Below are positions 10,880 to 25,424 of a stretch of 64,000 nucleotides of DNA, one piece after another. Under the pieces are notes generated by a model. The model worked only from the letters and a program-made list of their open reading frames with translations, was not told where the DNA came from and did not search any database. The DNA is from Candidatus Daviesbacteria bacterium RIFCSPHIGHO2_12_FULL_37_16 (GTDB lineage: Bacteria; Patescibacteriota; Microgenomatia; Daviesbacterales; UBA10151). Where the stretch lies: contig MFDF01000023.1 in assembly GCA_001776785.1 (NCBI GenBank), positions 60,432 through 124,431 of the forward strand. Reading direction: 5' to 3'. A program made the position numbers and the translations under genes. Each line of letters begins with the position of its first letter. Position 1 is the first letter of the stretch.

Positions 10880-10908
10880 AATCCCCCCAAGTTTGGGGGG
10901 ATTTTTTT
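10880..10908 (+). terminator. Rho-independent terminator (ATCCCCCC-loop-GGGGGGAT then T7)
   Basis: Perfect 8-bp GC stem then TTTTTTT. Also sits just downstream of the convergent comM. Confidence 0.6.
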
Positions 10909-10946
10909 AGAGATTGCCACGTCGCTTCGCTCCTCGCAATGACGGT
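10908..10946 (+). repeat. Family-1 repeat copy (AGAGATTGCCACGTCGCTTCGCTCCTCGCAATGACGG)
   Basis: See 44031-44068. Located immediately after the terminator T-run. Confidence 0.6.
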
Positions 10947-10964
10947 TTGGCTGGAGAGATGTAG

Positions 10965-12494
10965 TTAAGCATCTGATTTAGCCCTATATTGGAGGGCTTC
11001 TGCAATGTGGTGCTGTTCAATATGTTCTGAATCTGCTAGATCTGCAATGGTTCTGGATAATTTTAATATCCTGTGATAACTTCTGGCTGATAAATTCATC
11101 TGGACTATAGCTAATTTTAATAAATCCAAAGCTTCTTTTTTAATTGTGCAAAACTGTTTAATTTGGGAATTATTCATCTCTGAATTGGTTAGAATTCCTG
11201 TTCCTGCAAACCTTTTTGACTGGATTTTTCTTGTTTTCTCAACCCTTTTTTTAATCTCTTTTGAGGTTTCAGATTTTAGGTCTCCTGTTAATTTTTCAAC
11301 ATCAACAGCTGGTACATCTAAATGAATATCTATCCTGTCTAAAAGGGGGCCTGATAATTTTTTCTGGTACCTTGAGACCTGGCCCGGCATGCAGATACAG
11401 CTTTTTTTAATGTCCCCCAAAAACCCGCAGGGGCAGGGATTTTGGGCAGCCAGCAAAATAAACTGGGCTGGGAAGGATAAAGACCCGGAAGCCCTGGAGA
11501 TAACAACATGCCTATCCTCTAAAGGTTGCCTTAGGGATTCTAAAACCTGTCTTGGAAATTCAGGCAGTTCATCTAAAAATAGGACACCTCTGTGAGAGAG
11601 AGAAACCTCACCAGGTTTAATATTATTTCCTCCACCTATAATCCCAACATAAGAAGCTGTATGGTGAGGGGCCCTAAAGGGCCTTGTTTTTATAATTGCC
11701 TCATCTTTAGAAAGGTTTCCTGAGACTGAATAGATCTGGGTGATTTCTAATGCTTCATCTAAAGATAAAGAAGGGAGAATAGAAGGGAAAGTCCTGGCAA
11801 GCATGGTTTTACCTGCACCTGGAGGGCCTTTTAATAAAACATTGTGGGCACCTGCAGCTGCAATTTCTAAAGCCCTTTTTGATTGTTCCTGGCCTTTAAT
11901 CTGGGAAAAATCATACTCATAAAGCCCTTCTTTTTCTAAATTGATTTTAGTTTTGGGCTGGGGAGTAAAGGAGACAGATTTATTCAAAAAACTTACAACA
12001 TCTTTTAAATTTTCAAAGCCATAGATTTTTACTCCATCTATAATTGCTGCTTCAACTGCATTATCTTTTGGAATAATAATTTTTTTTAGACCTAATTTTT
12101 TTGCAAGAATAGTTAAGGGTAAAACTCCATGGGTATATCTTAAAGACCCATCAAGGGAGAGCTCACCTACATATAATATATCCTCTTCTACCTTTTCTAA
12201 CTGGCCTGAGCCAATTAAAATCCCTACTGCAATTCCTAAATCATATAAAGGTCCTTCTTTGGGTAGATCTGCAGGAGCTAAATTAACAGTGATCCTTTTT
12301 GGGGGAAAGTCTGCGCCTGAATTTCTTAAAGCTGAGCGGACCCTTTCTTTGGATTCATCGATTGCTTTGTCTCCTAAACCAACAATGGAAAAAGAGGGGA
12401 GGCCTTGGGAGGCTATGTCTACTTCAATAGTGACAGGGGTTGAGTTGAGCCCTAAATTTGCACCGGATAAAACCTTGGCAAGCATTAAAAACAT
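10965..12494 (-). CDS. comM: YifB/ComM family Mg-chelatase-like AAA+ ATPase
   Basis: N-terminal Lon-like domain. Walker A GPPGAGKT. C-terminal Mg-chelatase ChlI-like region. Confidence 0.85.
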   Translation of the reverse strand: MFLMLAKVLSGANLGLNSTPVTIEVDIASQGLPSFSIVGLGDKAIDESKERVRSALRNSGADFPPKRITVNLAPADLPKEGPLYDLGIAVGILIGSGQLEKVEEDILYVGELSLDGSLRYTHGVLPLTILAKKLGLKKIIIPKDNAVEAAIIDGVKIYGFENLKDVVSFLNKSVSFTPQPKTKINLEKEGLYEYDFSQIKGQEQSKRALEIAAAGAHNVLLKGPPGAGKTMLARTFPSILPSLSLDEALEITQIYSVSGNLSKDEAIIKTRPFRAPHHTASYVGIIGGGNNIKPGEVSLSHRGVLFLDELPEFPRQVLESLRQPLEDRHVVISRASGSLSFPAQFILLAAQNPCPCGFLGDIKKSCICMPGQVSRYQKKLSGPLLDRIDIHLDVPAVDVEKLTGDLKSETSKEIKKRVEKTRKIQSKRFAGTGILTNSEMNNSQIKQFCTIKKEALDLLKLAIVQMNLSARSYHRILKLSRTIADLADSEHIEQHHIAEALQYRAKSDA

Positions 12495-12543
12495 TAAAAC
12501 ACAAAGAGCTTATATTTTAAAATACTAAGATTAAAGTTATGTG

Positions 12544-13164: not shown

Positions 13165-13213
13165 ACTTAATAATCATAATTTATTATTAATTAGTTTTTG
13201 ATATACTCCAATT

Positions 13214-13714
13214 ATGAATTCTTTTTCTATTTGGATTGTGCCTTCTGGAGATGTAAAAAAGAAGCTTGAAGGGGTTATTTTAGATTTAAGCCAGAAATAT
13301 AACTCGCCAGTTTTTGAGCCTCATATGACACTTTTGGGGGATATATCAGTTGATGAAAAATCTGTACTAGAAAAGGCAAAAATTTTAACTTCAAAAATTA
13401 AACCTTTCACAGTAGAACTTGGGGAAATATCTTTTAGCACAACATATTTTCAATCAGTTTTTGTGAGAATTAAATCTAATGCAGAACTTATGAATGCTAA
13501 TTTAGCTGCAAAAGAAATATTTGGAGTTGATAATAATGTTTTTATGCCCCATATCAGTCTTTTGTATGGTGATTATGACATGGAGTTAAGGGAAAAAGTT
13601 GCAAAAGAAATTAAATTACCTTCTAATTTATCTTTTAATGTAGATAAACTTGTTATAATACCAAGTTTTCCAGAACCTAAGGACTGGAAACACTTAGCTA
13701 AACTCCCACTTTAA
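13214..13714 (+). CDS. 2H phosphoesterase family (LigT/ThpR-like 2'-5' RNA ligase / cyclic phosphodiesterase)
   Basis: Two H-x-[TS]-x motifs, PHMTLLGD and PHISLLYGD, at the expected spacing. Confidence 0.7.
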   Translation: MNSFSIWIVPSGDVKKKLEGVILDLSQKYNSPVFEPHMTLLGDISVDEKSVLEKAKILTSKIKPFTVELGEISFSTTYFQSVFVRIKSNAELMNANLAAKEIFGVDNNVFMPHISLLYGDYDMELREKVAKEIKLPSNLSFNVDKLVIIPSFPEPKDWKHLAKLPL

Positions 13715-13755
13715 ATTCTCAGTAAAATTTTTTACAAATTTAGTAAGATATTGGG

Positions 13756-14721
13756 ATGGCTTATGAATTTACCTCCTTTTTAGAGAAGAGAAGACAACAA
13801 AGAAGAAATAAAAAGATTGTTAGAATTTTAGGTTTTTCCATAGTTATATTATTTGCAGTTTTTTTTATCCCAGGTTTTCTTAGAGATAGGCCTGCAATTT
13901 TGGGAGAACTGGTTAAACCAAATGTTAAATCCACCCAGGCTACACCCACTATTGAGTCAAGTAAAAATTTAGAACAGGCTGTATCAAAAGCTTTAATTGG
14001 GACCCAGGGAGAGTATGCAGTTTATATTAAGAATTTAAAAACTAATGAATCCTTTTTTTTGAACGAACACCAGGTATTTGAGTCAGGAAGTTTATACAAA
14101 CTTTGGGTAATGGGTGAGGCTTTTAAGCAGATTGAGGAAGGAATTATTCAAGAAGATGAAGTTTTATCCCAGGACATTGCCACATTAAATAGAAAGTTTT
14201 CTATTGATCCAGAGTTGGTTGAACAAACTGAAGGAGGGATTACACTAACTGTAGCCCAGGCTTTAAACCAGATGATAACTATATCCCACAACTATGCAGC
14301 ACTACTTTTGACTGAGAAGTTAAAACTTTCTCAGGTAAAAAAGTACCTTGAGGATAATGGTTTTAAGGAATCACAGGTAGGGTCTGAAACTGAGCCTCCA
14401 AAAACTACTGCTTTTGATACAGCTTTATTTTTGGAGAAGTTATATAGGGGAGAGCTTGGCAGCAGTGAGAGCAATGTAAAGATGATGGAGCTTTTAAAAA
14501 ACCAGAAATTAAATAAAAAGCTTCCAAAATATTTGCCAGAGGGTACAGTTTTAGCCCACAAAACTGGAGAGATTGGCTGGTTTTCTCATGATGGAGGAAT
14601 TGTTTTTCAAGAAAATGGGGATTATATAATTGTAGTTTTATCTGAAAGCAGTGTACCTGCAGGGGCAGAAGACAGGATTGCTAAAATTTCAGAAGCTGCT
14701 TATCAATATTTTTCTCAATAG
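13756..14721 (+). CDS. Class A beta-lactamase-like serine hydrolase with an N-terminal TM anchor
   Basis: S-x-x-K (SGSLYK), an SDN-like ISHN, and KTG (HKTGEIG). Confidence 0.65.
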   Translation: MAYEFTSFLEKRRQQRRNKKIVRILGFSIVILFAVFFIPGFLRDRPAILGELVKPNVKSTQATPTIESSKNLEQAVSKALIGTQGEYAVYIKNLKTNESFFLNEHQVFESGSLYKLWVMGEAFKQIEEGIIQEDEVLSQDIATLNRKFSIDPELVEQTEGGITLTVAQALNQMITISHNYAALLLTEKLKLSQVKKYLEDNGFKESQVGSETEPPKTTAFDTALFLEKLYRGELGSSESNVKMMELLKNQKLNKKLPKYLPEGTVLAHKTGEIGWFSHDGGIVFQENGDYIIVVLSESSVPAGAEDRIAKISEAAYQYFSQ

Positions 14722-14723
14722 TT

Positions 14724-15638
14724 TTACTTAAGAGTGCAGAAGAGTTGGGGGAAGGAAATCCTGAAGAATCCAAAGTTTAGGGTCCTAACCCTAATCTGAC
14801 AGGATATATTTAGTCCAAAGAAGGGATTAGGGGCTGAACTAGGTGTTGCAGATGGTGAAGAGGTTGGTGTAGCTGATGGAATTGAGGTAGGTGTGGCAGA
14901 AGGGGTAGCTGTAGGTGTAGGCTGCGCAGTTGGTGAAGCTGAAGGAGTAGCAGTGGGGGTTGCACTTGGAGTTGCTGTTGGAGAGGGAGTGGCCTCTGGT
15001 TCAATGTCAGACTGGGAGTTTTGGGGCTGGGGTACATCTCTTACTACAAAATCATCTCCATTGTTATTTGTATCTTCTGCATTGCCCATGTTTATATCAA
15101 CTCCTGAGGACATACTCTGCGGGGTTGAAGAAGAGTTTGCTTTTCTTTCCAGACTCTGGCCTGATGAAGGAGTGGCAGCTGCAGTTGTTTCTGTATCTAA
15201 AGCTGTTCCAAAGCCTACTTTATCAACTAGAGTTGTGCCTGAGTCAGAAAATAAAGAGAGAGTATTATCATCTGCAATTACTCCTGATGAGTAAACTAAG
15301 TCAGCAGAAGGAGAAGCAAATGATTCATCATGGGTTATTAAGAAAAATCCATTTGAAGGGATAGTCCCTGACAAAGATGCTACCAGGCTTGTTTCAGGAG
15401 ATCCATCCTGAGGTTTTTTTGTTAATCTCCAACCTGCAAGATCTACTGGAGAGGAGGTTGGGTTATAAAGCTCAATAAATTCATCATTTGCACTACTGCC
15501 TCTGACCATAATTTCTGAAATGACTATGTTTGTGGCTGCAGCAGATTTAACTGATGTTACCTGGTGTAAGTAGATTAGGGAGAGTGTTGTTAGGGCTGTA
15601 AGAGATAAAAAGATGGGAAGGGCAGTTTTTCTCATCAA
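14724..15638 (-). CDS. Secreted lamin-tail-domain (LTD) protein with a long Ala/Thr/Pro/Ser low-complexity tail
   Basis: Signal peptide. IVISEIMVRGSSANDEFIELYNPTSSPVDLAGWRL is the LTD signature. C-terminal (ATPS)n repeats generate the spurious ORFs on the opposite strand. Confidence 0.7.
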   Translation of the reverse strand: MMRKTALPIFLSLTALTTLSLIYLHQVTSVKSAAATNIVISEIMVRGSSANDEFIELYNPTSSPVDLAGWRLTKKPQDGSPETSLVASLSGTIPSNGFFLITHDESFASPSADLVYSSGVIADDNTLSLFSDSGTTLVDKVGFGTALDTETTAAATPSSGQSLERKANSSSTPQSMSSGVDINMGNAEDTNNNGDDFVVRDVPQPQNSQSDIEPEATPSPTATPSATPTATPSASPTAQPTPTATPSATPTSIPSATPTSSPSATPSSAPNPFFGLNISCQIRVRTLNFGFFRISFPQLFCTLK

Positions 15639-15811
15639 TTTTATTTTAGTGAAGATAGGATTTTAGTCAAGACAGCAAATTTATCGGCTATTTTGAGAAA
15701 AGTTAAATTTATGTAAATAAAAGTAATAAATGTGTAAGAATTTGGTATTTTTGGGCTTATTGGGGTTGTCAAAACTAGATTTTTTGGTAAGATTGGAAGA
15801 ATAAATTATCT

Positions 15812-16972
15812 ATGGATAATATTCTAGAAACTATTAATAAATCTGGACTGAGGCTCTTAGAACCACTAACACTTTCTGAAACTTATGAGATTATTGTAAA
15901 AGAAGCAATAAGATTGGTGGATGCGGCTTATGGTTCCCTAACTTTAATTTCAGGTGACAAATTTTCTCAGGTTTATTCAACTCTCCCTATAACTGTAAAA
16001 AGACGCAAAAAAGGCTTTACATATAAAGCTTTAAAATCAAGAAAAATTTTAATAGTTAACACAGAAAAGACTGATGGTTTTCTAAAACTCTATCCAGACT
16101 ATCAAAATTTAGGAATAAAATCGGTTGTGTTGATCCCTTTGTTTTACAAAAAAGAGGCTATTGGAGTACTAGCAATAAATTCTTTTAGAAGTGAACATTT
16201 TAACAAAAGAGAGCTTGATATTTTACAGCTGTTTGGATCTTTTGCCACTTTAGCAATAAGAAAAAATCAACTTTATGATGAGGTTAAAAAAGCTTTAGAG
16301 ATAAGAGATCTTTTTATATCTATGGCTGCTCATGAATTAAGAACTCCATTAACTTCTGTAAATGGATATATTCAGCTTTTGAGAAGCAAACAAACAAATT
16401 CTAATACCCCTGAATCTAGATGGATAGAGCAACTATATGGTGAGAGTTTGAGAATGACAAGTTTAGTAAATGAATTATTAGAGATAAACCGAATTAGATC
16501 GGGGAAGTTAAATTTTATTTTAAAGGAGTGCCACGTTGGTCAGTTAATTAGAAAGATAGAGAATGATTTGAAAGTTTCTTATCCTAACAGAAAATTTGTT
16601 ATTGAAGATCAGACAGGAGATAGATCCGATTTGGTGATTGGAGATTCAGATAAAATATCCCAAGCATTGTTTAATTTAGTAGAGAATGCTATTAAATTTT
16701 CGCCAGAGAGCACTCCAGTTGTCATGAATTTAAAGAATAAAAGTGGGAATTTGATTGTACAAGTAAAAGATAAAGGTGTAGGAATTCCTAAAAAGGATTT
16801 GGATTTAATTTTTAGAGCATTTCAGCAGGGAGAGCATAGTAGGGAGGGTTTAGGTTTGGGACTTTATCTTGTGAATAATATTGTTGAGAATCTGCGAGGA
16901 AATATAAAAATATCTTCTAAAATAAACAAAGGAACAACAGTAGAGGTTATTTTTCCACAAGCAAGAACATGA
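15812..16972 (+). CDS. Cytoplasmic sensor histidine kinase (GAF + HisKA + HATPase_c), no TM
   Basis: H-box AAHELRTPLTSV. N-box NLVENAIKFS. G-boxes DKGVGIP and GLGLGLYLV. Confidence 0.8.
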   Translation: MDNILETINKSGLRLLEPLTLSETYEIIVKEAIRLVDAAYGSLTLISGDKFSQVYSTLPITVKRRKKGFTYKALKSRKILIVNTEKTDGFLKLYPDYQNLGIKSVVLIPLFYKKEAIGVLAINSFRSEHFNKRELDILQLFGSFATLAIRKNQLYDEVKKALEIRDLFISMAAHELRTPLTSVNGYIQLLRSKQTNSNTPESRWIEQLYGESLRMTSLVNELLEINRIRSGKLNFILKECHVGQLIRKIENDLKVSYPNRKFVIEDQTGDRSDLVIGDSDKISQALFNLVENAIKFSPESTPVVMNLKNKSGNLIVQVKDKGVGIPKKDLDLIFRAFQQGEHSREGLGLGLYLVNNIVENLRGNIKISSKINKGTTVEVIFPQART

Positions 16973-18042
16973 CAGAATCTATTCCAGAAGTAAAAAAAAT
17001 TATAAGACGTAATTCTGCATTATGGTTTGAACCCATAATGAGAGTAGAAGGACTACCTTTAATTGAACATCTTCAGGATAGGAATCCCCAACATTTTAAT
17101 AAGTTAACTTATTTGAGCGCCAGTTCTTATGGAAGAGCGCAGAGGTTGAAAGAGCAGATAACAATAGAGATTGATATTTTAGGGTTAACGGGTTTAGCAA
17201 AATCTCTTCTTAGAGAAGAACTTTGTAATTTTTTTGAACCGATCGGACCAACTTTTACACATGATTATGAAGTGTCTATTGCTTTAGCTACGTTGCAAGG
17301 AAAAGTAAAAAATCCTAGTGGTCAGAGGACAGAGGAGGAGTTTCAAAGATCAAACGAAGAAGATAATAGGTTAATTAGTCTTTTTTTGGATCATATTGAG
17401 GTTAACAAGTTTTTTGTTCGAGAAAAACCTGGAATTACTCAGGATCCCTTTACGAAAGCTGGGTCTGTTAGAGGAGACTGGAGTTTTGATAAAAGGTTTA
17501 GGCATAGAAGGTCTCTTTTCGACATAATCATGGGAGGTGAAGAGGAGTTTAGAAGAGCCAATGTTTACAGGAGGGCAGTTTTAGCCAGTGAGACTAAAGA
17601 TGCAAATTGGAGTTCTGGTTATAATGCTTTCGTTCAGCATTCTAAGGCTGCAGCCCTACAGATTTATACTCTAGCAGGGCGCGAAGAAGGAATGCGCTAT
17701 GAAGAGCTTGATAAATACAAAGGAATGCCCCTGGAAGAAATTGGATCTTATTTATATAGAGAGGAAGGGGCGATGGTGGAATTTATAAGAGATGTACTTA
17801 GCAAGAGAGTCTCTCTTTTTCTTCACGGTGCCTACAATTCAGAGAGAGTGATATTTTTTTGCAATGAATTAAAAGAGGATTGGTCAACAGCTTTCAAAGG
17901 ATACTCAAAAGTTGCCCTGAATTCCAGGTTGGGCATACACAGAGCTTTGTGGAAACATTCTCAAAAAACAGGAGATAAAAGTTTAGGAGCTGAACTTAAA
18001 AGTATGAAGGTTCCAGAATTAATAGAGATAGAAGAGAGGTAA
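16969..18042 (+). CDS. Hypothetical protein (357 aa) translationally coupled to the histidine kinase (ATGA overlap)
   Basis: 4-nt start/stop overlap with the kinase gene. No domain recognised (a weak R-x4-H near the C-terminus). Confidence 0.55.
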   Translation: MTESIPEVKKIIRRNSALWFEPIMRVEGLPLIEHLQDRNPQHFNKLTYLSASSYGRAQRLKEQITIEIDILGLTGLAKSLLREELCNFFEPIGPTFTHDYEVSIALATLQGKVKNPSGQRTEEEFQRSNEEDNRLISLFLDHIEVNKFFVREKPGITQDPFTKAGSVRGDWSFDKRFRHRRSLFDIIMGGEEEFRRANVYRRAVLASETKDANWSSGYNAFVQHSKAAALQIYTLAGREEGMRYEELDKYKGMPLEEIGSYLYREEGAMVEFIRDVLSKRVSLFLHGAYNSERVIFFCNELKEDWSTAFKGYSKVALNSRLGIHRALWKHSQKTGDKSLGAELKSMKVPELIEIEER

Positions 18043-18047
18043 GGAAT

Positions 18048-18911
18048 ATGATAGAAAGTTGGCAAGGGTCTAAACCAGTTTTTTTGTTGGACAATCAAAA
18101 AACTTTAACCCAGCATGTAATACATGAAAGAAATAGAAATCACCAACAGCCACAAGATTATAGTTATGATGATTATTTATTAGTCGAAAAGATGGTTGAT
18201 TGTTTGCGAAGAGAACATTGGGGGGAAATTTCTAAGGATAGGATTAATAGAGAAGATGCTTTATTTTTTCAAATAAGTCTTTTAGATTTAGCTATTTCAA
18301 AAGAAATTGATATTAATGATCTTGGTAATGGTTTTAATTTGATGGAATACTTGTTAAAAGCACCAAAAAAAGATGGAATATCTTCTATACCTAGTATTAG
18401 TTCATCCTCAAATGATCAAATAACAGATTGGAAATTAACCGATGAAGCTAAAAGTTTAGTTAAAATGATTCATGATGATTTAAAATGCCCACAGTTTGTA
18501 GTTACAGGCATTGGTATCGATCAGAGGACAGAGCTATTTGAAAATTTTACTAAGCAAGGAGTTCTGGAATATTTAGATGATCCGCAATTTATATTACGAC
18601 TAGGTAGGATTGGTTCTACACATATTCACAAAGCATTTGTGAATGCCGCAGTGCGCAATCTAGGAGAGCCTACAATTCATGTGGATGACGATCCCAATAC
18701 AATAGGAACAGTACAAGCGCTTGTTGGTGGTGCGCATGTATTAGTTTCAACACCAGAAGAGGTTGAGTTCTATACTAGATCTAGAGGTTTAGACTCGATA
18801 AAAAATCAAAAATCAGGACCCATTTTTCAAAAAGGAGTAGATGGAGATACTATGCTGGAATTAGCTCATAAAGCCTATGATTGGTGGCGAGATCAACCAG
18901 CTAGTCTTTGA
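18048..18911 (+). CDS. Hypothetical protein (287 aa)
   Basis: 5-nt gap after the previous gene with RBS GAGGTAAGGAA. Its 3' end overlaps the convergent response regulator by 11 nt. Confidence 0.55.
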   Translation: MIESWQGSKPVFLLDNQKTLTQHVIHERNRNHQQPQDYSYDDYLLVEKMVDCLRREHWGEISKDRINREDALFFQISLLDLAISKEIDINDLGNGFNLMEYLLKAPKKDGISSIPSISSSSNDQITDWKLTDEAKSLVKMIHDDLKCPQFVVTGIGIDQRTELFENFTKQGVLEYLDDPQFILRLGRIGSTHIHKAFVNAAVRNLGEPTIHVDDDPNTIGTVQALVGGAHVLVSTPEEVEFYTRSRGLDSIKNQKSGPIFQKGVDGDTMLELAHKAYDWWRDQPASL

Positions 18912-19572
18912 TCATGTAACCGAAGCCGCGGACAGAGTGTAAGAGTTTTTGGTGGGCAGACTCATCAATCTTTTTTCTTAGGTAACCCATATAAACATCT
19001 ACCACCCTTGTTTCTATATCCGGGGAATATAACCAAACCCTGTTTAAAATCATTTCCCTGGTTAAGATCCTGCCCTTATTGCTCATTAAATACTGCAGGA
19101 GTTTAAATTCCTGAGGTGTCAGCTGTATATTTTTTTCTTTTCTTTTTACCTCTAAGGTCTTATTGTCTAATTCTAGATCTCCAACTTTGAGTTTAGTATC
19201 CTGGATGCCTTTGCTTCTAAGCCTGGCTTTTACCCTAGCCAAAAGTTCATCTGCCACAAAGGGTTTAGTCATATAATCATCAGCTCCTAAATTTAGACCC
19301 TGGACTATATCTGAAACTGCATCTTTGGCAGTTAGAATAATTACAGGTAGGTCAGGATATTTTTTTCTGATTTCCATACAGACTGCTTCACCGCTCATAT
19401 TGGGTAGGCCTAAATCCAGAATAACCAGGTCTGGTTCTGATTTAGAGATTGAGTTTAGTGCCTGAATACCATCTGAAGCTGATTGGGCTGAAAAGCCATT
19501 ATCCAAAAGAAGTTCCTTTAAGTATTTTTGTAAACCTGAGTCATCTTCAACAATGAGGATTGTGCTTGTCAT
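18901..19572 (-). CDS. OmpR/PhoB-family response regulator (REC + winged-helix Trans_reg_C)
   Basis: ILIVEDD...D53-like LVILDLGLPNMSG...K. C-terminus ...VWLYSP...RVVDVYMGYLRKKID. Confidence 0.8.
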   Translation of the reverse strand: MTSTILIVEDDSGLQKYLKELLLDNGFSAQSASDGIQALNSISKSEPDLVILDLGLPNMSGEAVCMEIRKKYPDLPVIILTAKDAVSDIVQGLNLGADDYMTKPFVADELLARVKARLRSKGIQDTKLKVGDLELDNKTLEVKRKEKNIQLTPQEFKLLQYLMSNKGRILTREMILNRVWLYSPDIETRVVDVYMGYLRKKIDESAHQKLLHSVRGFGYMIKD

Positions 19573-19823
19573 AGGTTTTCAAAAAAATTATATAGAGATA
19601 TCAATTTATTTTCAAGTATCCTCTTACTAATTTTGGAAGTTTTTTTGAGGCTACTGTGCATATCCTTACAATATTATTACAAAAAAATTAACTTTTTTAT
19701 TACTGATGCTCAGTATTATTGCTATGTGATTAAAGTAAATAAAGTATTAATAAGAATAGTTAAAAATACATTCCTATATGATTTTGTAGTACTTTTTTCT
19801 GCCCCTGTTAAGTAATATTTTAA

Positions 19824-21263
19824 TTAGAATGGGTTTGTAATTAAATTTGAGTTTAAATATTTAAGTTTTATATTTGGCGGGGATTCAATGTTGGTTAACT
19901 TTTTCTGAGAGTTTAAATAGCTACTAAGAATTTTATAGGTATCTAAATCAAAATTGATGTATTCTTCCTGCTCTAACCCATCCATTGTAACCTTTCCTAT
20001 TAAACACCAGTTATTTAATAGGAATCCCTCATCCCCTTCTTTGATAATAATTGGCCCGTTAAATGGCCAGGGTTTAAGTCTGCTGCGGGTGAAGGCTTCT
20101 ATAAACCTTAAATTATACTTTATGGTTTTTTCTTTACCTTTGCAGGCACCATGACAATTGCCAAGCCTGTAGCCAAAACATTCCCCCTTAGTATTTTCTA
20201 AAGATAATAATTTCTCACAAAGATTAAAGTTTTTACAGATAATTAATAAAGTATCTTTTGCCTGTTTTTTTGACCTGAAAACTCCAACTATAGAATCTAA
20301 GTCTGCAGGATTAATTCTATCCACAGACTCCAGTGCTATAGTTTTATACCCTTGGGGATTGTCTTTAACTTTTAATAGCAAAAGTTTTCTGGAGAGCCTA
20401 AGCTTTGAGTTATAAAGGGGCTGAAGTTTTTTTACCAGAGTGGATTCTAATAAAAGGGCTCCCAATTCTCCAAAGGTTTGAATAGTTTCTATGTTTGTGA
20501 TTAGCTGGGCAATTTTTAACTCTTTTGAAGAAAGATGGTCTGAGGAGAAGTGGGACATTACCCTATCTTTAATATTTATACTTTTTCCCACATAAAGGGG
20601 TGCCCTATTTTCTCCATAAAAAATATAGACTCCTGGGGATTTGGGGAGTGAATCTAAAATATCCTCAGAAATTTTTATAGGAATGGAGGGTCTTTTCATA
20701 GCTTTTTTAAGGTTTAATAAAAGTGTTTCTTTGGGCAGTTTTTTTGTTAAATGTGAGTAAAAATCCCACAAAACTTTAGCATCATCAAAAGCGCGGTGGC
20801 GGTTTTTAACTTTGAATTTAAACCTTTCTATTATGCTGTCTAAATTGTGGTGTCTGTGTTCAGGATATAAAGCCCTTGATAACTTTACTGTGCAAATTTG
20901 TTTTGGAGAAAAACTAATTTCCCATCTTTTAAATTCATTCTTTAAAAAACTTAAATCAAACCTGACATTGTGGGCTACAAAGATACAATCCTCTAGAAGA
21001 GAATAAATATCTTTTTTAACTTCATAAAAAGTTGGTGCAGCCTCAAGCTGTGAAGGGGTTATGCCTGTTAGTTCAACTATCTCTTCAGGGATATGACACT
21101 GAGGATTAAGTAAAGTCTGGTAGCTTTCAATTAATTTGTGGTTTTCAACTCTTAATATGCCTATTTCTATAATTCTATCTGAAATCCTACAGCCTGTAGT
21201 TTCTATATCAACAAAAGCTAGTTTTTTTGGCAGATCATCCATAGGAGAATTGAATATTATCAA
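19824..21263 (-). CDS. DnaQ-like 3'-5' exonuclease fused to a GIY-YIG nuclease domain
   Basis: Exo I FVDIETTG. Exo II/III (HNVRFD..., HRAFDDA). GIY-YIG (PGVYIFYGEN...LYVGKSINIKDR). Confidence 0.7.
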   Translation of the reverse strand: MIIFNSPMDDLPKKLAFVDIETTGCRISDRIIEIGILRVENHKLIESYQTLLNPQCHIPEEIVELTGITPSQLEAAPTFYEVKKDIYSLLEDCIFVAHNVRFDLSFLKNEFKRWEISFSPKQICTVKLSRALYPEHRHHNLDSIIERFKFKVKNRHRAFDDAKVLWDFYSHLTKKLPKETLLLNLKKAMKRPSIPIKISEDILDSLPKSPGVYIFYGENRAPLYVGKSINIKDRVMSHFSSDHLSSKELKIAQLITNIETIQTFGELGALLLESTLVKKLQPLYNSKLRLSRKLLLLKVKDNPQGYKTIALESVDRINPADLDSIVGVFRSKKQAKDTLLIICKNFNLCEKLLSLENTKGECFGYRLGNCHGACKGKEKTIKYNLRFIEAFTRSRLKPWPFNGPIIIKEGDEGFLLNNWCLIGKVTMDGLEQEEYINFDLDTYKILSSYLNSQKKLTNIESPPNIKLKYLNSNLITNPF

Positions 21264-21307
21264 AGGTATTATTAATAAGGCAATACTTATATGAGGAATG
21301 GTAAGAT

Positions 21308-23556: not shown

Positions 23557-24441
23557 ATGCTTTCTGCCCATGAAGTTAAACAATTAGAATTAAAGGCAAA
23601 TGAGATCCGCATTGACCTTATAAAGATGCTTGAGGAAGCAGGCAGCGGGCATTCTGCAGGCCCTTTGGGGATGGCAGATATATTTACTGCACTTTATTTT
23701 AATATTCTAAATATTGATTCCAAAAATCCAAATTTAGCTGAAAGAGATAGGTTAGTTTTATCAAATGGGCATATCTGCCCTGTACTTTATACTACTATGG
23801 CCCACAGGGGATTTTTTCCTGTTGAAGAGCTTAAGACGTTGCGAAAGCTGGGGAGTAGGTTGCAAGGGCATCCACACAGAGAAGCTTTACCTGGTTTAGA
23901 AACAACCTCAGGGCCTTTGGGTTCTGGACTTTCGCAAGCCAGTGGGATGGCAGCTGTAGCTAAGATGGATAAGCTTCCCTGGAGGGTTTACTGCTTAATG
24001 AGTGATGGGGAGCAGGATGAGGGGAATACCTGGGAAGCTGTGATGTTTGCAGCAAAATATAAACTGGATAATTTAACTGCCATTATGGATAGAAATCACA
24101 TTCAAATTGATGGTTTTACAGAAGATATCATGCCTTTGGATTCCCTAAAAGCTAAGTATGAGGCATTTAATTGGTATGTAATAGAAATTGATGGGCATAA
24201 TATGCAGGAGATTATTGATGCCTGTCATGAAGCTGAGGCAATTCATGATAAGCCAGTTTTGATTTTGGCCCATACAATTCCCGGGAAGGGTGTGGATTTT
24301 ATGGAGAATGATTATAAATGGCATGGAGCTCCTCCAGGGGCTTCTGATATGGAAGGTGAACCTAAAAAAGAAGAGCAGGCAAAAATTGCACTTAAGGAAC
24401 TAAGAACTTTAAGAGGAAAGATACGATCGGAGCATGAATGA
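23557..24441 (+). CDS. tktA: Transketolase, N-terminal (TPP-binding) subunit
   Basis: GHSAGPLGMADI, SNGH, GPLGSGLSQASGMA. Split-gene arrangement. Confidence 0.85.
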   Translation: MLSAHEVKQLELKANEIRIDLIKMLEEAGSGHSAGPLGMADIFTALYFNILNIDSKNPNLAERDRLVLSNGHICPVLYTTMAHRGFFPVEELKTLRKLGSRLQGHPHREALPGLETTSGPLGSGLSQASGMAAVAKMDKLPWRVYCLMSDGEQDEGNTWEAVMFAAKYKLDNLTAIMDRNHIQIDGFTEDIMPLDSLKAKYEAFNWYVIEIDGHNMQEIIDACHEAEAIHDKPVLILAHTIPGKGVDFMENDYKWHGAPPGASDMEGEPKKEEQAKIALKELRTLRGKIRSEHE

Positions 24442-25424
24442 TTAATCAAAACTTAAAATTAAATCCTAAACTTTTTGATGAGGATATTGAGGAGGCTCCT
24501 ACCAGGAAGGGGTTTGGGGAGGGGTTGGTAATTGCAGGCGATGAAAATCCTAATGTGGTGGCTCTTTGTGCAGATTTAACAGAGTCTACTAGGATGGAGG
24601 AGTTTAAAAAGAAAAATCCTTCTAGGTTTTTTGAGGTTGGGGTGGCTGAGCAGAATTTGGTTACTGTTGGATCAGGTATGGCAGCAGCTGGAAAGATTCC
24701 CTTTGTTGCAAGTTATGCTACTTTTTCTCCAGGCAGGAATTGGGAGCAGATTAGGACTACTATTTGTTATAACAATGTGCCTGTAAAGATTGTTGGATCC
24801 CATGCAGGGATTTCTGTAGGACCTGATGGAGCAACACATCAGGCTTTAGAAGATATAGCTTTAATGAGGGCTTTACCAAATATGGTGGTAATTGTTCCGG
24901 TGGATGCAATTGAGGCCAAAAAAGCCACTATTGCAATGAGTAAAGATAAGATGCCTGATTATTTAAGACTTTCCAGATCTAATGTTCCAACTGTTACAAC
25001 TGAGGAAACACCTTTTGAAATTGGGAAGGCTGAAGTTTTTTTTGAGGGTAAAGATGTAACAGTCATTGCCTGCGGGCAGATGGTCCATAGAGCACTTTTG
25101 GCTGCAGAGGATTTGAAAAAGAGTAATATAAGTGTCCGGGTAATAAATTGTTCCACTATTAAACCTTTAGACTCAAAAACAATATTAAAAGCGGCAGAAG
25201 AAACAGGAGCAATTGTTACTGTTGAAGAGCACCAGGTAAATGGAGGGTTAGGCGGGGCAGTTTCAGAGCTTGTAAGTGCCCATTTTCCTGTACCTATAAA
25301 AATAATAGGGATTGAGGACCATTTTGGAGAGAGTGGGGAACCTGAAGAGCTATTAGAAAAGTTTGGGTTGACTGTAGAAAATATTATAAAGGCTGTAACG
25401 CAGGTTTTAAGAATGAAACATTAA
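24438..25424 (+). CDS. tktB: Transketolase, C-terminal (Pyr + C-terminal domain) subunit
   Basis: 4-nt overlap with the N-terminal subunit. FEVGVAEQNLV, GPDGATHQALEDIALMRALPNM. Confidence 0.85.
   Translation: MINQNLKLNPKLFDEDIEEAPTRKGFGEGLVIAGDENPNVVALCADLTESTRMEEFKKKNPSRFFEVGVAEQNLVTVGSGMAAAGKIPFVASYATFSPGRNWEQIRTTICYNNVPVKIVGSHAGISVGPDGATHQALEDIALMRALPNMVVIVPVDAIEAKKATIAMSKDKMPDYLRLSRSNVPTVTTEETPFEIGKAEVFFEGKDVTVIACGQMVHRALLAAEDLKKSNISVRVINCSTIKPLDSKTILKAAEETGAIVTVEEHQVNGGLGGAVSELVSAHFPVPIKIIGIEDHFGESGEPEELLEKFGLTVENIIKAVTQVLRMKH

What the first reader, a model, noticed from the sequence alone, without database searches (positions are those of the whole stretch)
15812..19572. Four-gene signalling module: a GAF histidine kinase coupled to two unknown proteins, with a convergent OmpR-type regulator
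The soluble GAF-HisKA-HATPase kinase overlaps by ATGA with a 357-aa protein of no recognisable fold. A 287-aa unknown follows after 5 nt. The 3' end of the 287-aa gene overlaps the convergent response regulator by 11 nt. Such packing implies co-function, but it is not a standard two-component operon, and the two unknowns may be novel accessory signalling or effector proteins. The 357-aa protein has only a weak C-terminal R-x4-H (HEPN-like).
Basis: partly seen in the sequence, partly recalled or inferred. Interest (0 to 1): 0.6.

Follow-up and report, generated by a model that had tools for sequence, protein, structure and literature searches.

The report
Self-regulated signalling cassette with two orphan proteins
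A groundwater bacterium carries a sensor kinase and its DNA-binding regulator that always travel with two fast-evolving proteins found almost nowhere else, and all four genes appear to share one control site, so the module is real and co-functional, but what the two orphan proteins do is still unknown.

Summary
A soluble GAF-HisKA-HATPase kinase overlaps a 357-aa protein (U1) by ATGA. A 287-aa protein (U2) follows after 5 nt, and a convergent OmpR-type regulator overlaps U2 by 11 nt.

U1 and U2 match no family library. An exhaustive search of 1.84 billion representative proteins finds three full-length U1 relatives. Every one lies in the same kinase-U1-U2-regulator cassette, one of them with different flanking genes. 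No relatives occur on phages, plasmids or viral contigs.

New here: a WalR-type direct repeat (WGTAAD-N5-WGTAAD) lies upstream of both transcription units in every cassette where the promoter is visible, and nowhere else in the 64-kb window. This points to common feedback control by the regulator.

U1 and U2 evolve far faster than the kinase. Against the closest relative the kinase is 91% identical, U1 64% and the U2 N-terminal half 36%.

Fold assignment failed (AlphaFold pLDDT 36-39). U1 shows weak but above-chance P-loop, Ras/Era-like similarity. A HAD-like reading of U2 rests on motifs and Foldseek ranks only and fails the profile tests. The HEPN-like motif is not conserved.

Verdict: a real, narrowly distributed variant of an autoregulated two-component system with two novel partner proteins. 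Moderate interest.

The parts
15722..15738 (+). Operator-like direct repeat AGTAAT-AAATG-TGTAAG, 74 nt upstream of the kinase ATG
   Evidence: GTAATN5TGTAAG occurs exactly twice in 64 kb (expected 0.03; 0 of 100 shuffles reach 2). The equivalent site lies upstream of the kinase in L001, L002 and L010. [quoted passage not shown]
15766..15793 (+). Sigma-70-like promoter candidate (TTGTCA-16-TAAGAT with an upstream TG) for the kinase-U1-U2 transcript
   Evidence: Consensus scan, 9 of 12 matches, not enriched over shuffles. The TGGTAAGAT element is conserved in window, L001 and L002. Weak evidence.
15812..16972 (+). Soluble sensor histidine kinase, GAF-HisKA-HATPase_c, 386 aa
   Evidence: Pfam GAF 1.4e-12, HisKA 2.8e-15, HATPase_c 1.7e-25. 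H-box AAHELRTPL is visible in the translation. No transmembrane segment. Identity to L001, L002 and L010 orthologues is 91%, 70% and 61%.
16969..18042 (+). U1, 357-aa orphan protein. The conserved polar core lies at about residues 64-200 and includes G72-L-T-x-x-A-K78-S, P94-x-x-T97-x-D-Y-E, S117-G118 and R151-E-x-P-G155-x-T-Q-D-P. The C-terminal half is more variable and is predicted helical in a low-confidence model.
   Evidence: No family hit. Three full-length relatives plus one fragment in 1.84 billion representatives. Invariant columns. Weak P-loop/G-domain similarity. dN/dS 0.14-0.28.
18048..18911 (+). U2, 287-aa orphan protein. It has an invariant N-terminal KPxFL(L/I)DNQKTLT, a hypervariable stretch at about residues 25-125, and a conserved C-terminal half (CPQxV(V/L)(T/S)GI, STHIxKA, DDDPNTI, STPE, WW).
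   Evidence: No family hit. Relatives occur only in the same slot of L001, L002 and L010. Residues 40-120 are about 20% identical between window and L001, where the kinase is 91% identical.
18901..19572 (-). OmpR-family response regulator, 223 aa, convergent with U2 and overlapping it by 11 nt
   Evidence: Response_reg 1.3e-30 and Trans_reg_C 1.9e-26. Receiver residues D10, D53, T81 and K103 are invariant in an alignment with CheY and Spo0F. Identity to L002 and L010 is 88% and 80%.
18949..18968 (+). Terminator-like hairpin plus T-run, 38 nt past the U2 stop and inside the regulator's 3' coding end
   Evidence: Consensus scan, number of sites not above chance. Weak evidence.
19587..19615 (-). 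Sigma-70-like promoter candidate for the regulator (TTGAAA-17-TATAAT)
   Evidence: Best match in the region, 11 of 12.
19665..19681 (-). Operator-like direct repeat TGTAAT-AATAT-TGTAAG, 93 nt upstream of the regulator ATG
   Evidence: The second of the only two exact matches in the window. Equivalent sites lie upstream of the regulator in L002 and L010. A further GTAAGA half-site downstream of it is invariant in all three regulator promoters.

Best explanation
This is a self-contained, feedback-regulated two-component cassette restricted to a narrow lineage of groundwater bacteria. SHOWN: a soluble GAF-sensor histidine kinase is encoded immediately upstream of two soluble orphan proteins, U1 and U2. 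The kinase and U1 overlap by ATGA in three of four lineages. A convergent OmpR-type regulator closes the cassette. All four genes recur together in every lineage that has U1 or U2. A WalR-type direct repeat (WGTAAD-N5-WGTAAD) sits upstream of both transcription units. INFERRED: the phosphorylated regulator binds that repeat, so its own gene and the kinase-U1-U2 operon are controlled together. U1 has a degenerate P-loop, Ras/Era-like NTPase core. U2 has conserved ends around a hypervariable insert. The two act as a nucleotide-dependent accessory pair that tunes or feeds the kinase-regulator phosphorelay. That would make them analogous in logic, not in ancestry, to WalH/WalI next to WalK or to the GTPase partners of actinobacterial conservons. 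The variable part of U2 would supply lineage-specific input or partner specificity.
For: Gene layout and domains. Cassette conservation: L002 has all four genes, L001 has kinase-U1-U2 up to the contig end, and L010 has all four with unrelated flanks. The proteins are orthologous. The exhaustive profile search finds U1 relatives only in these cassettes. There are none in GTDB genomes, JGI metagenomes, IMG/VR, phages or plasmids. The ATGA overlap is conserved in window, L001 and L002. Operator: 2 exact sites in 64 kb against 0.03 expected, one in each promoter and each oriented toward its gene. The degenerate motif is present in 7 of 7 visible cassette promoters and absent from 7 unrelated loci. 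The consensus matches the published WalR/VicR site. Both unknowns are under purifying selection, with frames intact at 30-64% identity and dN/dS 0.14-0.28. U1 P-loop evidence: P0004 hits Pfam MMR_HSR1 positions 1-50 at E=0.018. A G-domain HMM scores P0004 at 11.8 bits and P0001 at 5.4 bits, reached by 0 of 1000 shuffles each. The reciprocal U1-core HMM ranks Ras, Der2, Der1 and EngB 1st, 2nd, 3rd and 6th among 358 sequences, p about 3e-7. The Ras alignment is in register over GxxxxGKS, and the K-to-T spacing of 19 equals that of Ras.
Against: Neither unknown has a significant fold or family assignment. AlphaFold pLDDT was 39 and 36, and PDB profile searches were empty. The U1 motifs deviate from canonical ones: GxxxxAKS, no DxxG, no NKxD. 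Two of four U1 members score no better than shuffles. Non-GTPase P-loop kinases also rank fairly high, Tmk 8th and AroK 12th. U1 and U2 diverge 4 to 12 times faster in dN than the kinase, which is unexpected for tight partners of a 91%-conserved kinase. Window, L001 and L002 are related genomes, so part of the synteny is shared ancestry, and only L010 is an independent context. Binding of this regulator to the repeat, co-transcription, and any U1/U2-kinase contact are all untested. Only 64 kb of the genome could be scanned for further operators.
Confidence: 0.4

Rival explanations
1. U1 and U2 are the regulated output of the system rather than part of the signalling path. They would be an enzyme pair, for example a P-loop NTPase or kinase with a HAD-like phosphatase, induced by the regulator together with its kinase when the GAF domain senses its ligand.
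For: The only operator-type sites in 64 kb are the cassette's own two promoters, as in dedicated sensor-effector cassettes. U1 has about 40 invariant polar or charged residues concentrated in residues 65-200, which looks enzyme-like. U2 has a by-eye pattern resembling the four HAD motifs. About two thirds of its top 50 Foldseek-PDB matches are HAD-superfamily structures, from roughly 12 distinct proteins, with the best at E=0.066. The predicted strand and helix order fits a capped Rossmannoid core. Fast evolution is easier to accept for an output than for a kinase partner.
Confidence: 0.3
2. U1-U2 is a selfish or defence-type two-gene insert, such as a toxin-antitoxin or anti-phage pair, that landed between the kinase and the regulator in an ancestor and is functionally unrelated to them.
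For: Very narrow distribution and very fast divergence, with a hypervariable segment in U2. Synonymous divergence at fourfold sites between window and L001 is higher in U1+U2 (48 of 84) than in kinase+beta-lactamase (87 of 220), Fisher p=0.007, which hints at allele exchange. In the same set of assemblies, mobile-element genes vary a few kb upstream of the cassette in one strain (L013).
Against: No PADLOC or PHROG hit. No relatives on phages, plasmids or IMG/VR contigs. Neither protein is ever found away from the kinase and regulator. No flanking repeats or integrase at the cassette. The ATGA coupling to the kinase is conserved. The operator lies upstream of the kinase-U1-U2 unit.
Confidence: 0.1
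3. U1 and U2 are decaying or spurious ORFs with no function.
For: No detectable homology to anything known, and low AlphaFold confidence.
Against: The reading frames are intact and of similar length in four lineages at 30-64% identity. There are 72 invariant columns in U1 and an invariant 7-residue DNQKTLT block in U2. dN/dS is 0.14-0.28.
Confidence: 0.03

Closest known systems
WalRK (YycFG) operon with the accessory genes walH/walI (yycH/yycI) in Firmicutes
   Same: An OmpR-family regulator with a HisKA kinase. Two poorly conserved accessory genes lie directly downstream of the kinase in the same operon. The operator is a direct repeat of hexamers with 11-bp periodicity, and the cassette sites fit TGTWAH-N5-TGTWAH with 0 to 2 mismatches.
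   Different: The kinase here is soluble with one GAF domain, where WalK has transmembrane, extracellular, HAMP and PAS parts. The regulator is convergent rather than first in the operon. NCBIfam WalK and YycF scores are far below cutoff (152.6 against 725, and 186.8 against 340). U1/U2 are cytoplasmic and unrelated in sequence to WalH/WalI.
Actinobacterial G-protein systems (conservons: CvnA kinase, CvnB Roadblock, CvnC, CvnD Ras-like GTPase)
   Same: An operon in which a sensor histidine kinase is encoded with a small-GTPase-like protein and further partner proteins (abstracts listed). U1 shows weak Ras/Era-like P-loop similarity.
   Different: No Roadblock/LC7, DUF742 or recognised GTPase domain is detected in U1 or U2, even at E up to 10. 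U1 is 357 aa with deviant G motifs. This cassette includes a classical DNA-binding response regulator. The host lineage is different.
Generic autoregulated OmpR/PhoB-type two-component systems (for example PhoBR, MtrAB-LpqB)
   Same: Domain architecture of the regulator, with best NCBIfam similarities to MtrA (213.7 bits) and PhoB (211.7 bits). Direct-repeat sites upstream of the system's own genes imply autoregulation.
   Different: All equivalog cutoffs are missed. Kinase and regulator are in separate, convergent, overlapping transcription units with two orphan genes between them.
HAD-superfamily phosphatases with a C1 cap (for example YfnB, beta-phosphoglucomutase, T4 PNKP phosphatase domain), as a lead for U2 only
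   Same: A by-eye motif pattern and order: strand ending in D15, a helical insert, (T/S)153-G, K195, then D213-D-D. HAD structures dominate the Foldseek ranks.
   Different: No profile similarity. The second Asp of DxDxT is Gln. No significant structural match.

Membership tests
Two-component system (HisKA kinase + OmpR-type regulator) | Kinase with HisKA and HATPase_c domains above Pfam thresholds, and an H-box histidine | tested here: met
   HisKA 56.6 bits (cutoff 26.9) and HATPase_c 90 bits (cutoff 26.4). AAHELRTPL is present in the translation.
Two-component system (HisKA kinase + OmpR-type regulator) | Regulator with a receiver domain carrying the phospho-acceptor Asp, Thr and Lys, plus a winged-helix Trans_reg_C output | tested here: met
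   Response_reg 106.3 bits and Trans_reg_C 92.4 bits. D10, D53, T81 and K103 are invariant with CheY and Spo0F.
Two-component system (HisKA kinase + OmpR-type regulator) | Phosphotransfer between this kinase and this regulator | not testable with these tools
   Needs biochemistry. Pairing is inferred from linkage in four lineages.
WalRK / YycFG | NCBIfam equivalog scores for WalK and YycF | tested here: not met
   HK_WalK 152.6 against 725. resp_reg_YycF 186.8 against 340.
WalRK / YycFG | Membrane-anchored kinase with extracellular, HAMP and PAS domains | tested here: not met
   Only GAF + HisKA + HATPase_c are detected, and there is no hydrophobic segment.
WalRK / YycFG | Operator TGTWAH-N5-TGTWAH | tested here: inconclusive
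   The sites are WGTAAD-N5-WGTAAD. Most deviate from the published consensus at one position per half-site, and one L010 site is a perfect match. Binding was not tested.
Conservon / actinobacterial G-protein system | Ras-like GTPase (CvnD) with canonical G1-G5 motifs | tested here: not met
   No GTPase family reaches threshold in U1. G1 is GxxxxAKS, and no DxxG or NKxD is conserved. Only weak profile similarity.
Conservon / actinobacterial G-protein system | Roadblock/LC7 (MglB-type) protein and a CvnC (DUF742) protein | tested here: not met
   No Pfam hit at E up to 10 in any U1 or U2 family member.
HAD superfamily (for U2) | Sequence-profile similarity, including motif I DxDx(T/V) | tested here: not met
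   hhalign probability 0.3% against a PDB-verified HAD profile. HMMER bits are negative and within the shuffle range. Motif I reads D-N-Q-K-T.
HAD superfamily (for U2) | Rossmannoid HAD fold with a cap | tested here: inconclusive
HEPN (for U1) | Conserved R-x4-6-H catalytic motif | tested here: not met
   R325..H330 occurs only in the window's protein and is substituted in P0001, P0002 and P0004.
P-loop NTPase, TRAFAC GTPase class (for U1) | Walker A/G1, switch-I Thr and G3 in canonical order and spacing, with profile similarity | tested here: inconclusive
   G72xxxxA77-K78-S and T97 are invariant, and the K-to-T spacing of 19 equals that of Ras. Similarity is above shuffles in 2 of 4 members and in a rank test, but the scores are at most 12 bits, and P-loop kinases also rank 8th and 12th.
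Receiver (REC) domain (for U2) | Profile similarity to CheY-like receivers | tested here: not met
   The best PDB sequence hit is a REC segment at E=0.28. hhalign against a REC profile gives 0.1% probability.
Known anti-phage defence systems | Match to PADLOC models for U1 or U2 | tested here: not met
   No hit at E up to 1.

The most novel reading that the evidence does not exclude
The cassette is a non-homologous analogue of the actinobacterial G-protein systems in an uncultivated groundwater lineage. A histidine kinase would be coupled to a highly degenerate Ras/Era-like nucleotide switch (U1) and to a hypervariable partner (U2) that sets input specificity, all under a WalR-like autoregulatory operator. 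That would be a new class of kinase-coupled NTPase switch built from two previously unseen protein families.
Probability: 0.15. Interest if true: 0.7.

Novelty: new variant of a known kind. Interest (0 to 1): 0.42.

Why it matters
Two-component systems are usually treated as two-protein circuits. Cases where extra dedicated proteins are wired into the kinase operon, such as WalHI, LpqB and the conservons, have each revealed new control logic. Here two protein families with only a handful of members in about 15 billion predicted proteins are locked to a conserved kinase and regulator and share its operator. That gives a compact, testable entry point into signalling in small-genome uncultivated groundwater bacteria. 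The contrast between a 91%-identical kinase and a 36%-identical U2 in close relatives also marks U2 as a candidate for diversifying selection or allele exchange. The narrow distribution limits general importance unless the folds turn out to be new.

Tried and rejected
1. Family libraries (Pfam at E up to 10, NCBIfam, PADLOC, PHROGs) gave nothing for U1 or U2, apart from one sub-threshold MMR_HSR1 hit in P0004.
2. PDB sequence and profile searches with 1-, 3- and 4-sequence queries gave nothing significant.
3. AlphaFold2 on U1 (3-sequence alignment) and U2 (2-sequence alignment) gave pLDDT 39 and 36, which is unusable. AFDB50 was unavailable.
5. The HAD hypothesis for U2 was rejected at the sequence level by hhalign and HMMER with shuffle controls.
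6. The receiver-domain hypothesis for U2 was rejected.
7. U1 and U2 are not paralogues of each other.
8. The HEPN motif is not conserved.
9. Scans of GTDB genomes, JGI metagenomes, IMG/VR, phages and plasmids found no U1 or U2 relatives. A genome scan with the kinase returned only generic kinases.
10. A population SNP analysis failed because all strain contigs are identical. L011's few differences cluster at the contig end and are uninformative.
11. Repeats, terminators and Rfam in the region gave nothing beyond chance.


Full report
**Observation.** The four ORFs are exactly as described: kinase 15812-16972 (+), U1 16969-18042 (+), U2 18048-18911 (+) and regulator 18901-19572 (-). The kinase stop and the U1 start share ATGA, U2 starts 5 nt after U1, and U2 and the regulator overlap tail-to-tail by 11 nt. 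Pfam finds GAF, HisKA and HATPase_c in the kinase and Response_reg plus Trans_reg_C in the regulator, all above threshold, and nothing in U1 or U2. None of the proteins has a membrane-like segment. The stretch 13200-21300 is 100% identical in at least ten independent metagenome assemblies, mostly aquifer or groundwater samples. The sequence is therefore solid. The organism's phylum was not tested.

**How rare the two unknowns are.** U1 and U2 have no match in NCBIfam, PADLOC, PHROGs or PDB sequences.
- A word-indexed search of 5.8 billion proteins found two U1 relatives, P0001 at 64% and P0002 at 45% identity.
- An exhaustive HMMER profile search of 1.84 billion representatives added only P0004 (E=3e-43, 30% identity) and a fragment identical to the window.
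- U2 relatives were found only by looking in the same slot next to the U1 relatives: 47% identity in L002, 35% in L010 and 34% over the partial copy in L001.
- Scans of 185,579 species genomes, JGI metagenomes, IMG/VR, phages and plasmids found nothing.
- U1 and U2 are not paralogues of each other.

**Do the four genes travel together? Yes.** L002 has kinase, U1, U2 and a convergent regulator. L001 has kinase, U1 and U2 up to the contig end. L010 comes from a different sample and has unrelated flanking genes (a pyridine-nucleotide oxidoreductase upstream, glycogen-debranching and glycosyltransferase genes downstream). It has the same four genes in the same order, again with an 11-nt tail-to-tail overlap. 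Identities to the window in L010 are kinase 61%, U1 30%, U2 35% and regulator 80%. The ATGA overlap is conserved in window, L001 and L002. In L001 the gene caller had chosen a later start.

**A shared control element (new).** Aligning the promoter regions exposed a direct repeat of hexamers spaced 11 bp start to start.
- The pattern GTAATN5TGTAAG occurs exactly twice in the 64-kb window, against 0.03 expected, and none of 100 shuffles reached two.
- One site lies 74 nt upstream of the kinase ATG on the + strand and the other 93 nt upstream of the regulator ATG on the - strand. Each points toward its gene.
- The degenerate form WGTAAD-N5-WGTAAD is present upstream of the kinase in all four cassettes and upstream of the regulator in all three where that region is available. 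It is absent from the rest of the window and from seven unrelated loci.
- L010 has one extra perfect site (TGTAAT-AAACC-TGTAAT) on the minus strand in its 84-nt U1-U2 spacer.
- The motif matches the published WalR/VicR consensus TGTWAH-N5-TGTWAH with 0 to 2 mismatches (PMC4168254).

The simplest reading, which is inferred and not shown, is that the cassette's own OmpR-family regulator binds both promoters. All four genes would then be under common feedback control.

**Evolutionary behaviour.** Both unknowns are real genes. Their frames and lengths are preserved at 30-64% identity, many columns are invariant, and dN/dS is 0.14-0.28. The kinase is at about 0.07 and the regulator at about 0.03, with dS largely saturated. 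They nevertheless evolve much faster than their neighbours. Amino-acid identity between the window and L001, and divergence at fourfold-degenerate sites for the same pair (Fisher tests), are:

| Gene | Amino-acid identity | Fourfold-site divergence |
|---|---|---|
| Beta-lactamase | 85% | 0.39 |
| Kinase | 91% | 0.40 |
| U1 | 64% | 0.55 |
| U2 (N-terminal half) | 36% (about 20% over residues 40-120) | 0.65 |
| LTD protein | 64% | 0.60 |

Fisher's test for U1+U2 against kinase+beta-lactamase gives p=0.007. This hints at older or exchanged alleles, though the site counts are small.

**What U1 and U2 might be.** AlphaFold2 failed for both, with pLDDT 39 and 36, as expected for families of 3-4 sequences.

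For U1, one relative gives a sub-threshold hit to the P-loop start of the GTPase family MMR_HSR1 (E=0.018).
- A local G-domain HMM scores P0004 at 11.8 bits and P0001 at 5.4 bits, and none of 1000 shuffles reaches either score. The other two members are within the shuffle range.
- A reciprocal U1-core HMM ranks Ras, Der2, Der1 and EngB 1st, 2nd, 3rd and 6th among 358 sequences.
- The Ras alignment is in register over the P-loop, and the K78-T97 spacing equals Ras K16-T35.
- The motifs are deviant (GxxxxAKS, no DxxG, no NKxD), and P-loop kinases also rank 8th and 12th.
- "P-loop NTPase-like, possibly GTPase-like" is therefore a lead, not an assignment.

For U2, I noticed a pattern resembling the four HAD motifs, and HAD structures dominate the top of the Foldseek-PDB list, with the best at E=0.066.
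- A HAD profile that I verified against the PDB shows no similarity to the U2 family by hhalign or HMMER, no better than shuffles.
- A receiver-domain reading also fails.
- U2's fold remains unassigned.

The HEPN-like R-x4-H of U1 occurs only in the window's copy and is rejected.

**Mechanism.** Best supported, at about 0.4: a feedback-regulated cassette in which U1 and U2 are dedicated partners of the kinase-regulator pair. U1 would act as a degenerate nucleotide switch and U2 as a partner with a variable specificity region.

Main rival, at about 0.3: U1 and U2 are the induced output enzymes.

A selfish or defence insert, at about 0.1, is disfavoured. U1 and U2 are absent from mobile-element collections and defence models, they never occur away from the kinase and regulator, and the operator lies upstream of the kinase-U1-U2 unit.

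Spurious ORFs, at about 0.03, are excluded by the conservation.

**Comparison and verdict.** In logic the cassette resembles WalRK with its accessory WalH and WalI, and it resembles conservon G-protein systems. It fails the defining features of both. NCBIfam cutoffs are missed, the kinase has no membrane sensor, and no Roadblock, DUF742 or canonical GTPase is detected. It is a new variant of a known kind, an autoregulated two-component system, that carries two novel protein families. Interest is moderate. The module is real, tightly conserved and now has a testable operator, but its distribution is very narrow and the biochemical roles of U1 and U2 are unresolved.

Noticed in passing
L010:4020-4036 (minus strand), in the 84-nt spacer between the U1 and U2 homologues: A third, perfect WalR-type site (TGTAAT-AAACC-TGTAAT) lies inside the operon of the most distant cassette and faces antisense to U1. 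It could mark an internal or antisense promoter.
   Followed up: partly
window 18901-18911, and L010:5095-5105: The 11-nt tail-to-tail overlap of U2 and the regulator is kept in the most distant cassette, while L002 has a 24-nt gap. There is no room for an intergenic terminator, so convergent transcripts should overlap and could interfere with each other.
   Followed up: no
window 14724-15638 (-), LTD-domain protein: A lamin-tail-domain protein with a Pro/Thr/Ser/Ala-rich low-complexity stretch sits directly upstream of the cassette in window, L001 and L002. It is also fast-evolving (64% identity against L001, fourfold-site divergence 0.60 against 0.40 for the kinase). Several assemblies annotate a 133-aa ORF on the opposite strand instead.
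   Followed up: partly
L011:1-662, joined to window position 17838: A 1,979-nt scaffold is 99.1% identical to window 17838-19119, but its first 662 nt are unrelated. They encode a 212-aa ORF with a C-terminal hydrophobic tail, and the junction falls inside U1. This is either a chimeric assembly or a strain in which U1 is truncated.
   Followed up: partly
L013:1-2821, compared with window about 10900-12500: One strain contig that is otherwise identical carries a resolvase and a TrwB/DUF87-like gene about 3 kb upstream of the cassette. The window and other strains have the Mg-chelatase-like ATPase there, and the other strain contigs also show a BrnT/BrnA toxin-antitoxin pair further upstream. 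This is a strain-level mobile-element polymorphism nearby.
   Followed up: no
window 19824-21263 (-): A 479-aa fusion of a DnaQ-like 3'-5' exonuclease (RNase_T) with a GIY-YIG/Cho-type nuclease lies next to the regulator. It is conserved at that position in L002 but not in L010.
   Followed up: no
window 13214-13714 (+): A 2H-phosphoesterase (CPDase / 2'-5' RNA ligase-like) gene lies about 2 kb upstream of the cassette. It is not conserved next to the cassette in L001, L002 or L010, so it is probably unrelated.
   Followed up: partly
window 23557-25424 (+): Transketolase is split into separate N-terminal (294 aa) and C-terminal (328 aa) genes that overlap by 4 nt. They lie downstream of the RpiB and ribulose-phosphate epimerase genes, forming a compact pentose-phosphate cluster.
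   Followed up: no
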